A stretch of 64,000 bases of DNA. Origin: Escherichia coli O127:H6 str. E2348/69 (GTDB lineage: Bacteria; Pseudomonadota; Gammaproteobacteria; Enterobacterales; Enterobacteriaceae). Position numbers and translations under genes: made by a program. This document shows, piece after piece, positions 5,503 through 7,052 of the stretch. Below the pieces are notes generated by a model. The model saw nothing but the letters and a program-made list of their open reading frames with translations. It had not been told where the DNA came from and did not search any database. The stretch is from NCBI RefSeq assembly GCF_000026545.1, contig NC_011601.1; one strand, 5' to 3'. The stretch's first letter is position 1. Each line of letters starts with the position of its first letter.

Positions 5503-7052
5503 CTGTCTCTTATACACAAATCCCCACCCGGGGATTTGTGATGTCTGTCAGTCTGCTTTAGGGGGACTCTTTCCATCCGGTAGTTTCCTTCCTCCCCGGC
5601 AGCGATTTTTTGAACTTTTTCCTCACCCGTTGATCTTCTCTTATATTTCATTTTCTTCGGGTCTGTTATGGTACTTTCTGATTGTTATTCATGGGCTAAC
5701 GAGCAGTTTGGACATGCCCGTCTCGGTGATCCGCGTCGTACACGACGCCTTGTGTCACTGGCCTCTTCTCTCGCTCAGCATGCAGGTCTTTCTATTGTGA
5801 AATCATCCCAGTCCACTGCTCAGGTTGAAGGTGCGTACCGCCTGATACGTAACCCGTCTGTGTCCCCGCAAGCCATTGCCGAAGCCGGATTTACCGCCAC
5901 TGTAAGGGCATGTGAGGCTCATCCGCTGCTCCTCGCGCTGGAAGACACCACCACCATTAACTTCAGTCACAGTACGGCATCTGATGACCTGGGGAATACC
6001 ACCACTAACCCGAAGACGCGCGGGCTGCTGGCTCACTCTGTCCTGATGTACGCCCCCGACAGCGCCCTGCCAGTCGGTCTTATCGAACAGCAGCGCTGGA
6101 GTCGTGCCACGGACACCTACGGTGTTAAGCACCAGCGAAAAGAACGTCCCTATGAAGAAAAAGAAAGTTACCGCTGGCAGCAGGCTTCGGAGCGCATGGC
6201 CGAATGGCTGGGGGAGATACAGAAACGGGTAATCACTGTCTGTGACCGGGAAGCGGATATCTGGCATTACCTGCATTATAAAGTCAGCCACGGGCAGCGC
6301 TTCGTGGTGCGTGCAGCACAGAATCGCCGGCTGGAAGAAGCACCCGGCAAGCTCTTCGAACTGCCGGAAGTCCTGGCAACCGCGGGAAGCCACACGCTGA
6401 ATGTGATGCAAAAAGGCGGGCGGGCAGCCCGCCAGGCCCGGATGTTCATCAGTTACAGCGAAGTCAGCATAAAAAATCCCGACAACAGCGGCCAGGCGCT
6501 CCCGCTCACGTATGTCTGTTGCCGGGAGCAGGCAGAGGACGGCGCCTGCTGGCATCTGCTGACGTCAGAAAAAGTGGCGAGTGCCGCCGATGCGCGACGT
6601 ATCGTCAGCCATTACGAGCGACGCTGGCTGATAGAGGAATACCACAAGGCGTGGAAAAGTGGTGGTACATGTGTGGAATCGCTGCGAATGCAGACCCGGG
6701 ATAACCTCGAGCGCATGGTGGTTATCAAGGCGTTTATCGCGGTGCGGGTGCTGGGCCTGCGGCAGGGCGGTATCAGTGAAGAAACACAAAATGACAGCTG
6801 TGAGAAAATACTGACGCCGACAGAGTGGAAACTGCTGTGGGTTAAGCTGGAAGGAAAACCGCTTCCGTCACAGATGCCGACACTGAAATGGGCCTGTCTG
6901 AAACTGGCGAAACTGGGGCGATGGCATGACAGCAAACGCACCGGTCGCCCCGGTTGGGTAGTCATGTGGGATGGCTGGTTCAGACTTCAGGATATGGTTG
7001 AGGGTTACCTGGTGATGAAGTCTCTTGATCAGGAGATCTGATCAAGAGACAG
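5503..7052 (+). mobile_element. IS50-like insertion sequence (IS4 family), 1550 bp, with intact transposase
   Basis: Left terminus CTGTCTCTTATACACAAAT (Tn5 outside-end/mosaic-end-like) and right terminus identical to the IS50 inside end in inverse orientation (AGATCTGATCAAGAGACAG); encodes a Tn5 Tnp-like DDE transposase; flanked by 8-bp direct repeats. Confidence 0.85.
5668..7041 (+). CDS. IS50/Tn5-type DDE transposase (457 aa)
   Basis: Conserved blocks shared with Tn5 Tnp as recalled: LGDPRRT, AYRxIRNPxVS, VCDREADI, RFVVR, LLTSE, YxxRWxIEEFHKAWK(S/T)G, DNLERMV, SKRTG; stop codon lies inside the terminal inverted repeat as in IS50. Confidence 0.9.
   Translation: MVLSDCYSWANEQFGHARLGDPRRTRRLVSLASSLAQHAGLSIVKSSQSTAQVEGAYRLIRNPSVSPQAIAEAGFTATVRACEAHPLLLALEDTTTINFSHSTASDDLGNTTTNPKTRGLLAHSVLMYAPDSALPVGLIEQQRWSRATDTYGVKHQRKERPYEEKESYRWQQASERMAEWLGEIQKRVITVCDREADIWHYLHYKVSHGQRFVVRAAQNRRLEEAPGKLFELPEVLATAGSHTLNVMQKGGRAARQARMFISYSEVSIKNPDNSGQALPLTYVCCREQAEDGACWHLLTSEKVASAADARRIVSHYERRWLIEEYHKAWKSGGTCVESLRMQTRDNLERMVVIKAFIAVRVLGLRQGGISEETQNDSCEKILTPTEWKLLWVKLEGKPLPSQMPTLKWACLKLAKLGRWHDSKRTGRPGWVVMWDGWFRLQDMVEGYLVMKSLDQEI

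What the first reader, a model, noticed from the sequence alone, without database searches (positions are those of the whole stretch)
5503..7052. Intact IS50-family element with a divergent transposase but canonical IS50 inside-end sequence
The right terminus is identical over 19 bp to the IS50 inside end (CTGTCTCTTGATCAGATCT, with its GATC Dam sites), read in inverse orientation. The left terminus, CTGTCTCTTATACACAAAT, is intermediate between the Tn5 outside end and the engineered mosaic end. The 457-aa transposase keeps the Tn5 Tnp catalytic blocks but, judged from my recalled Tn5 sequence, is only moderately identical to it. This looks like a natural free-standing relative of IS50 rather than a Tn5 remnant. 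The transposase is full length and the ends are intact, so the element may be active. Tn5 normally makes 9-bp duplications; here only 8 bp are identical.
Basis: partly seen in the sequence, partly recalled or inferred. Interest (0 to 1): 0.45.

Follow-up and report, generated by a model that had tools for sequence, protein, structure and literature searches.

The report
ISEc13, a known IS50-like insertion sequence
The element is an intact copy of ISEc13, an already catalogued jumping gene of E. coli related to IS50/Tn5, so the finding is real but ordinary; the unexpected part is that it and its relatives insert almost only into GC-rich palindromes such as transcription-terminator hairpins.

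Summary
Window 5503-7052 is a 1550-bp insertion sequence. Its right end is identical over 19 of 19 bases to the IS50 inside end. Its left end differs at 2 of 19 bases from both the Tn5 outside end and the mosaic end. It carries one intact 457-aa transposase gene and is flanked by an exact 8-bp duplication.

It is not new. It is 100% identical to copies that RefSeq annotates as "IS4-like element ISEc13 family transposase". These occur at 27-30 places per chromosome in E. coli O127:H6 E2348/69. The transposase is 39% identical to the IS50-type transposase and keeps the DDE and YREK residues.

The 8-bp duplication is the element's norm: 18 of 22 independent sites have 8 bp. Removing the element and one repeat copy restores an intact gene found in other strains.

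Three further results:
- ISEc13 strongly prefers the target YCYCY|N8|RGRGR, often a terminator hairpin.
- Marine relatives insert at terminator hairpins a fixed 4 bases from the flanking A and T runs, so duplication length varies from 8 to 12 bp.
- These elements carry a conserved hairpin or terminator just inside the left end.

I found no paper describing these three features.

The parts
5503..7052 (+). Complete ISEc13 copy, 1550 bp
   Evidence: 100% identity over all 1550 bases to copies annotated 'IS4-like element ISEc13 family transposase' in E. coli O127:H6 E2348/69 genomes. The boundaries are defined by the conserved termini and by the empty-site comparison.
5495..5502 (.). Left copy of the 8-bp target-site duplication, GCTGCGGT
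   Evidence: Read directly. The junction is identical in L004 and L010. The empty site is confirmed at 100% over 500 bp.
7053..7060 (.). Right copy of the 8-bp target-site duplication, GCTGCGGT
   Evidence: Same evidence as the left copy.
5503..5521 (+). Left terminal repeat, like the Tn5 outside end: CTGTCTCTTATACACAAAT. It contains TTATACACA, which fits the DnaA-box consensus.
   Evidence: 2 mismatches to the Tn5 OE and 2 to the ME. The OE and ME sequences come from PMC3347997. The first 23 bases are exact in 81 loci of marine gammaproteobacteria. The DnaA-box reading rests on established knowledge of the IS50 OE and was not tested here.
5515..5540 (+). Subterminal hairpin: CACAAATCCCC ACCC GGGGATTTGTG, an 11-bp stem with a 4-nt loop. 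It overlaps positions 13-19 of the left end.
   Evidence: Folding the 58-nt left-end stretch (5503-5560) gives -22.1 kcal/mol, z = -5.45. In 19 sequence variants from relatives the same position holds a 10-13-bp hairpin whose inner stem differs through paired changes. That hairpin is followed by a run of 6-8 T, a textbook intrinsic terminator. In ISEc13 the T run is not adjacent.
5606..5615 (+). T6 run overlapping TTGAAC. This is the same motif that directly follows the hairpin in relatives. It may be a displaced terminator tail and a -35-like hexamer.
   Evidence: Sequence comparison. The function is inferred. The consensus promoter scan found no site that passed its threshold.
5632..5635 (.). 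Single GATC (Dam site) 32 bases upstream of the start codon
   Evidence: GATC positions in the element are 130, 226, 1525, 1533 and 1538. IS50-type and Vibrio relatives have GATCTGATC in the same upstream region. A regulatory role is inferred from IS50 biology.
5668..7041 (+). Transposase gene, 457 aa, with its stop codon inside the right terminal repeat
   Evidence: ORF. Pfam domains: Tnp_DNA_bind (70 bits), DDE_Tnp_1 (32 bits), and Dimer_Tnp_Tn5 at 24.1 bits, just under its 26.7 cut-off. NCBIfam NF033590 scores 511 bits. Tn5 transposase structures match at E = 7e-83. Catalytic residues are D93, D193 and E323; the YREK motif is Y316, R319, E323, K330.
7034..7052 (-). Right terminal repeat, identical to the IS50 inside end (CTGTCTCTTGATCAGATCT), with two GATC sites. 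A third GATC lies at 7027-7030.
   Evidence: 0 of 19 mismatches. The IE was verified in Tn5 DNA in L108 and in the IS50-like copies of L002.
7053..8293 (-). N-terminal part of the interrupted DUF1116/YlbE (AllG-family) gene. Its reading frame runs on into the element as far as 6980.
   Evidence: RefSeq marks it as a pseudogene 'missing C-terminus' in L001. ORF 6980..8344 is listed. The intact gene is present in other strains.
5311..5502 (-). C-terminal fragment of the same interrupted gene
   Evidence: RefSeq marks it 'missing N-terminus'. ORF 5311..5517 is listed.

Best explanation
This is an intact and very probably active copy of ISEc13, a catalogued insertion sequence of the IS4 family, IS50 subgroup. 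It has inserted into a DUF1116/YlbE(AllG)-family gene of an E. coli O127:H6 E2348/69-type chromosome.

Inferred by homology with Tn5: the single 457-aa DDE transposase binds the two 19-bp ends and excises the element by cut-and-paste through hairpin intermediates. It then joins the element to a target cut with an 8-bp stagger.

Shown here from insertion sites: the preferred target is YCYCY|N8|RGRGR, a GC-rich palindrome that is often a terminator hairpin.

Inferred regulatory features:
- A weak promoter.
- Dam (GATC) sites in the inside-type end and upstream of the gene.
- A hairpin just inside the left end. In relatives this is a complete intrinsic terminator facing incoming transcription, so it should shield the transposase gene from outside read-through.

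Unlike IS50, the element has no Met at the position of the inhibitor (Inh) start.
For: Identity. The element is 100% identical over 1550 bp to annotated ISEc13 copies. These occupy 27-30 places per E2348/69 chromosome. 873 of 5426 complete E. coli genomes hold a copy covering at least 80% of the element.

Family. The transposase matches Tn5 transposase structures at E = 7e-83. It is 39% identical to the IS50 type and 52% identical to a Vibrio relative. Pfam and NCBIfam domains fit. DDE and YREK residues are present with the family spacing (criteria in PMC2266710). The ends match.

Simple insertion. The empty site is restored exactly when the element and one repeat copy are removed.

Mobility. 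22 independent sites carry duplications. The mog/satP terminator is occupied in both orientations. The agp/yccJ terminator was hit twice, once with 8 bp and once with 9 bp.

Target motif. C at -4 and -2 and G at +2 and +4 are invariant in 12 of 12 sites. 9 of those 12 score at least 8 of 10 against the motif. Only 2.9e-4 of background positions in the window score that high.

Hairpin..
Against: - No transposition experiment is available, and I found no paper on the biology of ISEc13.
- The ISfinder reference entry could not be consulted, so the name rests on RefSeq annotation.
- This copy's transposase has Trp180 where the commoner variant and all relatives read here have Arg. Its effect on activity is unknown, although copies encoding this variant lie at 4 or more different sites.
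- The consensus scan found no promoter.
- The Tn5 dimerisation-domain match is just below Pfam's threshold.
- The left hairpin lacks the adjacent T run, so it may not terminate transcription in ISEc13 itself.
Confidence: 0.93

Rival explanations
1. It is a remnant or diverged copy of IS50 left behind by Tn5.
For: The right end is identical to the IS50 inside end, and the left end is close to the outside end.
Against: The transposase is only 39% identical to the IS50 type. The element is flanked by its own target duplication inside a chromosomal gene, with no Tn5 cargo nearby. It occurs as dozens of solitary, near-identical copies.
Confidence: 0.01
2. It is an intact-looking but immobile fossil. 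The copies spread in the past, and this transposase variant (Trp180) is dead.
For: The R180W change affects a residue conserved in all relatives read here. Many E. coli genomes carry only degraded copies at 95-96% identity or fragments. No strong promoter was found.
Against: The copies read differ by 0-2 bases, and none of those changes falls in the ORF. Place counts differ among E2348/69 sub-lineages (27, 29 and 30). Copies encoding the Trp180 protein lie at 4 or more sites. Different strains carry independent hits in the same hairpins.
Confidence: 0.06
3. The 8-bp repeat is a 9-bp, Tn5-like duplication that later lost one base.
For: Tn5 makes 9-bp duplications. An IS50-like element in L002 shows 9-bp repeats at both of its copies.
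Against: 18 of 22 independent ISEc13 sites have exactly 8 bp. The IS50 subgroup is tabulated with 8-9 bp. The reconstructed empty site is exact.
Confidence: 0.01

Closest known systems
ISEc13 (ISfinder/RefSeq name; IS4 family), as found in E. coli O127:H6 E2348/69
   Same: The sequence is identical over all 1550 bp. The length, ends and transposase are the same.
   Different: Nothing differs at the DNA level. This copy encodes the Trp180 protein variant (WP_000244363.1) rather than the commoner Arg180 variant (WP_000244358.1).
IS50 (IS50R/IS50L of Tn5) and the Tn5 transposase
   Same: - Three-domain transposase (N-terminal DNA-binding, DDE catalytic, C-terminal dimerisation) with DDE and YREK residues.
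- 19-bp ends: the inside end is identical and the outside-type end differs at 2 of 19 positions.
- The stop codon lies inside the inside end.
- GATC sites occur in the inside end and upstream of the gene.
- A DnaA-box-like TTATACACA lies in the outside-type end.
   Different: - 39% amino-acid identity, and 457 aa against 476 aa.
- 8-bp rather than 9-bp duplication.
- No Met at the inhibitor start (Met56 aligns with Gln52).
- A subterminal hairpin is present.
- Strong preference for a GC-rich palindromic target.
- Solitary, not part of a composite transposon.
IS50-like elements of Vibrio, Alishewanella, Neiella, Shewanella and other marine gammaproteobacteria (1480-1505 bp). From memory, the 'Vibhar' Vibrio harveyi transposase used commercially belongs here.
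   Same: - The first 23 bases of the left end are identical.
- The right end begins CTGTCTCTTGATCA.
- The transposase is 52% identical.
- There is a hairpin just inside the left end.
- Insertion is into GC-rich palindromes.
   Different: - Their hairpin is a complete terminator with a T run.
- They have a Met at the position next to the Tn5 Met56 equivalent (SPADMEGAYR).
- Their targets are terminator hairpins of varied sequence, flanked by A and T runs.
- Their duplications vary from 8 to 12 bp.
IS231A (IS4 family) target preference, GGG(N)5CCC with AT-rich flanks
   Same: It is an IS4-family element that chooses a short GC-rich symmetric motif flanked by A/T tracts. It is cited in PMC2266710, and the details are from my own knowledge of Hallet et al. 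1994.
   Different: It belongs to a different subgroup, has different ends (5'-CAT), makes 10-12-bp duplications and has the opposite motif polarity (GGG..CCC rather than CCC..GGG).
Insertion sequences that target palindromes: ISRm22 (IS4 family, into REP), IS1397/ISKpn1, IS621, IS1272
   Same: They insert into extragenic palindromes or inverted-repeat structures (PMC1525189; PMC5678879).
   Different: They have different transposases or subgroups. Their targets are specific repeat families or, for IS1272, inverted repeats without a duplication. ISEc13 makes ordinary duplications and hits unrelated hairpins that share only the arm motif.

Membership tests
IS4 family, IS50 subgroup (criteria of De Palmenaer et al. 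2008, PMC2266710) | Single transposase ORF without a programmed frameshift | tested here: met
   One uninterrupted 457-aa ORF at 5668-7041.
IS4 family, IS50 subgroup (criteria of De Palmenaer et al. 2008, PMC2266710) | DDE triad with spacing D(60~110)D(100~150)E | tested here: met
   D93, D193 and E323, giving spacings of 100 and 130. They align with the Tn5 blocks containing D97, D188 and E326.
IS4 family, IS50 subgroup (criteria of De Palmenaer et al. 2008, PMC2266710) | YREK signature Y-(2)-R-(3)-E-(6)-K | tested here: met
   Y316, R319, E323 and K330 in YERRWLIEEYHKAWK.
IS4 family, IS50 subgroup (criteria of De Palmenaer et al. 2008, PMC2266710) | Terminal consensus CW------Y---CA-A--W- | tested here: met
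   Both ends fit: C1, T2, T9, C13-A14, A16 and T19 (sequence; consensus).
IS4 family, IS50 subgroup (criteria of De Palmenaer et al. 2008, PMC2266710) | Size 1350-1550 bp and direct repeats of 8-9 bp | tested here: met
   1550 bp. The repeat is 8 bp here. Across 22 sites it is 8 bp in 18, 9 bp in 3 and 7 bp in 1.
IS4 family, IS50 subgroup (criteria of De Palmenaer et al. 2008, PMC2266710) | Tn5-type domain architecture (N-terminal DNA-binding domain, DDE core, C-terminal dimerisation domain) | tested here: met
   PF14706 scores 70 bits and PF01609 scores 32 bits. PF02281 scores 24.1 bits, just below its 26.7 cut-off. The alignment to Tn5 transposase structures is full length, residues 6-453.
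ISEc13 (same element or isoform) | Near-identity in DNA over the full length to the reference element | tested here: met
   100% over 1550 bp to copies that RefSeq names ISEc13. The ISfinder reference sequence itself was not available.
IS50 proper / Tn5 remnant | Transposase essentially identical to Tn5 transposase, and an outside end of CTGACTCTTATACACAAGT | tested here: not met
   39% identity. The left end differs from the outside end at positions 4 and 18.
IS50 proper / Tn5 remnant | Internal inhibitor (Inh) start at Met56 | tested here: not met
   Tn5 Met56 aligns with Gln52. The only in-frame alternative starts before Met127 are GTG codons at 29, 44 and 65. None was tested.
Active (transposition-competent) insertion sequence | Demonstrated movement to new sites | not testable with these tools
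   Only indirect evidence is available: many near-identical copies, insertion sites that differ between strains, and repeated independent hits on the same hairpins.

The most novel reading that the evidence does not exclude
ISEc13 and its marine relatives form a clade of Tn5-like elements whose transposases choose GC-rich palindromes and intrinsic-terminator hairpins as targets.

Strand transfer appears to be anchored to each half of the palindrome. In Vibrio and Alishewanella elements the joint lies 4 bases inside the A-run and T-run boundaries. In ISEc13 it lies next to the YCYCY/RGRGR arms. It is not set by a fixed stagger, so the duplication length floats: 7-9 bp in ISEc13, 9-11 bp in the Vibrio element and 8-12 bp in the Alishewanella-type elements.

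The elements also carry their own terminator hairpin at the left end, which resembles their targets.

If this has not been described, it is a natural example of target selection by structure or half-site in the Tn5 family. It hints that the target may be read as an extruded hairpin or cruciform, or as two loosely coupled half-sites.
Probability: 0.35. Interest if true: 0.55.

Novelty: already known. Interest (0 to 1): 0.2.

Why it matters
The finding itself matters little. It is a correctly recognised copy of a catalogued insertion sequence that has knocked out one accessory gene (DUF1116/YlbE family) in an EPEC E2348/69-type genome.

It does explain part of that lineage's genome plasticity, given about 30 copies and inversions between copies seen in related genomes.

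The by-products could matter more. A Tn5-family transposase with a strong, simple target motif would be relevant to three areas:
- how DDE transposases position the two strand transfers, given relatives whose duplication length follows the size of the hairpin;
- the fate of terminators in bacterial genomes;
- insertion bias of Tn5-like enzymes used as tools.

These points need experiments and a check against ISfinder.

Tried and rejected
- Orientation bias. I tested whether the element always places its left-end terminator behind the upstream gene. In tandem-gene contexts 5 of 6 sites fitted. A crude ORF survey of 100 unique left flanks then gave 69 co-directional and 31 opposite. By my rough estimate about 75% would be expected without any bias, so the idea is not supported.
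- Promoter scan of the element. No site passed the threshold. The -10-like TATATT at 5642-5647 and the TTGAAC at 5610-5615 are only my reading.
- Literature.
  - 'ISEc13' occurs in 8 papers, each with a single mention, and none was opened.
  - The E2348/69 genome paper is not held.
  - Searches for terminator-targeting insertion sequences or for 'Vibhar' returned nothing relevant.
- Metagenome scan with the 23-base left end. It returned mostly E. coli ISEc13 variants (1500, 1539 and 1551 bp, 95-96% identical) and only two new complete sites.
- Exact-protein look-ups for two marine transposases. They gave nothing useful.
- The alignment of the 5' regions used wrong coordinates for two sequences. 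I used it only for the GATCTGATC comparison.
- One fold (L016) was also mis-placed and is ignored.
- True IS50 outside end. L108 holds a Tn5 whose IS50 is truncated at that end, so the outside-end sequence was taken from PMC3347997 instead.
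Full report
**1. The observation**

The stretch 5503-7052 is a discrete 1550-bp element.

Termini:
- It begins CTGTCTCTTATACACAAAT and ends AGATCTGATCAAGAGACAG.
- The reverse complement of the right end is CTGTCTCTTGATCAGATCT.
- The right end has 0 of 19 mismatches to the IS50 inside end.
- The left end has 2 of 19 mismatches to the Tn5 outside end (positions 4 and 18) and 2 of 19 to the mosaic end (positions 17 and 18).

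I did not rely on memory for the reference sequences.
- The outside and mosaic ends are the oligonucleotides so named in PMC3347997.
- The inside end was read in Tn5 DNA immediately upstream of aph(3')-IIa (L108) and in two IS50-like copies on a Citrobacter plasmid (L002).
- The terminal motif occurs only at these two places in the window, against 0.10 expected by chance.

A single 457-aa ORF (5668-7041, + strand) fills the element. Its stop codon lies inside the right end.

The flanking repeat is exactly 8 bp: GCTGCGGT at 5495-5502 and at 7053-7060.

**2. What it is**

A megablast against 5,426 complete E. coli genomes shows 100% identity over all 1550 bases to copies annotated "IS4-like element ISEc13 family transposase".
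- These occur at 27, 29 and 30 places in three chromosomes of the O127:H6 E2348/69 lineage, plus plasmid pMAR2.
- 873 genomes hold a copy covering at least 80% of the element.
- 2,991 genomes hold some match.

The insertion junctions of the window are identical to those in LT903847.1 and in a second assembly (L004, L010). The window therefore comes from that lineage.

The element interrupts a DUF1116/YlbE (AllG-family) gene. This gene lies between fdrA and a carbamate kinase gene. Removing the element and one copy of the repeat gives a sequence that matches several genomes at 100% over 500 bp in one piece, with the gene intact. This is a simple insertion with a true 8-bp duplication.

**3. Family membership**

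- The protein matches Tn5 transposase structures at E = 7e-83 over residues 6-453.
- It is 39% identical to an IS50-type transposase and 52% identical to the transposase of a Vibrio owensii plasmid element.
- Pfam finds the Tn5-type DNA-binding domain and the DDE domain. The Tn5 dimerisation domain scores just below threshold. NCBIfam NF033590 scores 511 bits.
- The catalytic residues are D93, D193 and E323, with spacings of 100 and 130. The YREK signature is Y316, R319, E323, K330.
- These features, the end consensus, the size and the repeat length all fit the published criteria for the IS50 subgroup of the IS4 family: 1350-1550 bp and direct repeats of 8-9 bp (PMC2266710 Table 1).

It is not IS50 itself, and it is not a Tn5 remnant.

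**4. How it most likely works**

By homology with Tn5 (inferred, not shown), the transposase binds both ends and forms a synaptic complex. It excises the element through hairpin intermediates and then integrates it.

What the data show is the outcome. Among 22 independent ISEc13 insertion sites collected from E. coli genomes, 18 have 8-bp duplications, 3 have 9 bp and 1 has 7 bp.

Activity is implied by several observations:
- The nine copies read differ by 0-2 bases, and none of those changes falls in the ORF.
- The number of places differs among sub-lineages.
- The mog/satP terminator is occupied in both orientations in different strains.
- The agp/yccJ terminator was hit twice independently, once with 8 bp and once with 9 bp.

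No experiment is available.

Regulatory features compared with IS50:
- Two GATC sites lie in the inside-type end, with a third 4 bases further in. One GATC lies 32 bases upstream of the start codon, where IS50-type and Vibrio relatives have GATCTGATC.
- A TTATACACA DnaA-box-like sequence lies in the left end.
- There is no Met at the inhibitor start. Tn5 Met56 aligns with Gln52, the next ATG is Met127, and only GTG codons at 29, 44 and 65 could serve as alternative starts.
- The six marine relatives' transposases read here do have a Met next to that position (SPADMEGAYR or SPAEMEGAYR).
- The consensus scan found no promoter.

**5. Results beyond the finding**

(a) Target choice. Twelve aligned ISEc13 sites give YCYCY|CC....GG|RGRGR.
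- C at -4 and -2 and G at +2 and +4 are present in 12 of 12 sites.
- 9 of the 12 score at least 8 of 10 against CCCCT/AGGGG.
- Only 2.9e-4 of background positions in the window score that high.
- Many sites are hairpins between convergent genes: mog/satP, agp/yccJ, ybaY/MGMT-family gene, symE/DUF1127. The ibs toxin loci also recur among the sites.
- The site in this window lies inside a gene but fits the motif (TCCCT|N8|GGGGG). This argues for recognition of sequence or structure rather than survival of harmless insertions.

(b) Relatives. The first 23 bases of the left end are exact in 81 loci of Vibrio, Shewanella, Neiella, Aliagarivorans, Alishewanella, Rheinheimera, Photobacterium and Aeromonas. 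All 77 unique left flanks show the same layout:
- an A run (A at position -16 in 67 of 77);
- then a GC-rich stretch;
- then an AT-rich stretch;
- then G (59 of 77) and C (49 of 77) next to the element.

Complete copies show that the targets are terminator-like palindromes with an A run on one side and a T run on the other.
- In the Vibrio element, the left joint lies 4 bases from the A run in 9 of 10 sites. The right joint lies 4 bases from the T run in 7 of 10 sites. The duplication is 9, 10 or 11 bp.
- In Alishewanella-type elements the duplication ranges from 8 to 12 bp.
- The duplication length was scored as the longest suffix of the left flank that equals a prefix of the right flank. This measure cannot be inflated by neighbouring bases.

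I cannot explain this anchoring with certainty. Two models are possible:
- two loosely coupled half-sites separated by a flexible AT-rich centre;
- attack on an extruded hairpin or cruciform, measured from the base of the stem.

(c) Left-end hairpin. ISEc13 has an 11-bp stem at 5515-5540. The 58-nt left-end stretch folds at -22.1 kcal/mol, z = -5.45. In 19 variant relatives the same place holds a 10-13-bp hairpin. Its inner stem changes by paired substitutions, and it is followed by 6-8 T, so it is an intrinsic terminator facing incoming transcription. The likely role is to block read-through from the host gene into the transposase gene. This fits an element that destroys terminators when it lands. 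In ISEc13 the T run (5606-5611) lies about 65 bases further in, so termination there is doubtful.

An orientation bias relative to neighbouring genes was considered and is not supported.

**6. Comparison with what is known, and novelty**

The element is already known under the name ISEc13.

Targeting of GC-rich symmetric motifs or palindromes has precedents:
- IS231A, which prefers GGG(N)5CCC;
- ISRm22, which inserts in REP elements (PMC1525189);
- IS1272, which inserts in inverted repeats (PMC5678879).

I found no paper describing ISEc13 biology, terminator targeting by IS50-subgroup elements, or their variable duplications. However, ISfinder and most subscription journals were out of reach, so I cannot claim these are new.

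**7. Verdict**

- Novelty: already known.
- Interest of the finding as given is low (0.2).
- The most novel reading not excluded is the half-site or structure-anchored targeting of terminator hairpins. I rate it at probability 0.35 of being both real and undescribed, with an interest of about 0.55 if true.

Noticed in passing
22 E. coli loci (L004-L011, L094-L118); the window site is 5490-5065 flanks, i.e. 5490-5502 and 7053-7065: ISEc13 inserts almost only at YCYCY|N8|RGRGR. C at -4 and -2 and G at +2 and +4 are invariant in 12 of 12 aligned sites. Many sites are terminator hairpins between convergent genes.
   Followed up: yes
L003, L121-L130 (Vibrio element); L016, L053, L088-L092, L119, L120, L134 (Alishewanella-type elements): Within one element type the duplication length varies: 9-11 bp in the Vibrio element and 8-12 bp in the Alishewanella type. 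Each joint nevertheless stays about 4 bases from the A-run or T-run boundary of the terminator-like palindrome. No explanation is established.
   Followed up: partly
window 5515-5540; positions 13-50 of the left end in L013-L092: A hairpin lies just inside the left end. In 19 variant relatives it is a complete intrinsic terminator whose inner stem changes by paired substitutions. In ISEc13 the T run is displaced to 5606-5611.
   Followed up: partly
window 6205-6207 (codon 180 of the transposase): This copy encodes Trp180. The commoner ISEc13 protein has Arg there, and all marine relatives and the IS50 type have Arg at the aligned position. Copies encoding Trp180 lie at 4 or more sites in E2348/69-type genomes.
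   Followed up: no
window 5628 and 5654 (element positions 126 and 152): Among the copies read that encode the identical protein, the only differences are C/T at position 126 and T/C at position 152. Both lie in the untranslated region upstream of the transposase gene.
   Followed up: no
L133, L138, L141 and others (metagenome contigs); H67-H73 in E. coli genomes: Many E. coli genomes carry an older ISEc13 variant (1539 bp, about 96% identical) at one fixed place without a duplication. Its right flank is the same site that holds a modern copy in E2348/69 (CCGCACAGGG..). Fragments of 120-450 bp are common on chromosomes and F-type plasmids.
   Followed up: partly
L115/L116 (CP148541.1, about 60 kb apart); L091/L092 (Alishewanella jeotgali); L097 (pMAR2): Pairs of copies have exchanged flanks: the duplications match only across the two copies. 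This indicates inversions by recombination between copies. The pMAR2 copy has no duplication at all.
   Followed up: partly
L094 against L113 (mog/satP); L102 against L111 (agp/yccJ): The same terminator hairpin was hit independently in different strains. At mog/satP the two insertions are in opposite orientations. At agp/yccJ one has an 8-bp and the other a 9-bp duplication.
   Followed up: yes
window 6980-7052, - strand: The truncated host gene's reading frame continues 73 bases into the right end of the element. This would add about 24 foreign residues before a stop codon.
   Followed up: no
window 6171-6588, - strand: There are five terminator-like hairpins with T tails on the strand antisense to the transposase gene, against 1.7 +/- 1.4 in shuffled sequence. 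One example is GGCGGGCTGCCCGCCCGCC-TTTTT at 6433-6415. They might stop transcripts entering from the right end.
   Followed up: no
L154 1603-1652: This is a 50-bp perfect palindrome made of two left ends facing each other (left end, GGGA, inverted left end). It sits inside a longer palindrome whose flanks are inverted rather than direct repeats. It could be a mini-element, a rearrangement or an assembly artefact.
   Followed up: no
L002 391-1929 and 3395-4927 (Citrobacter freundii plasmid): Two copies of an IS50-like element bracket blaCTX-M-25. They have the outside-end variant CTGACTCTTATACACAAAT and an exact inside end. Each copy has its own 9-bp duplication.
   Followed up: no
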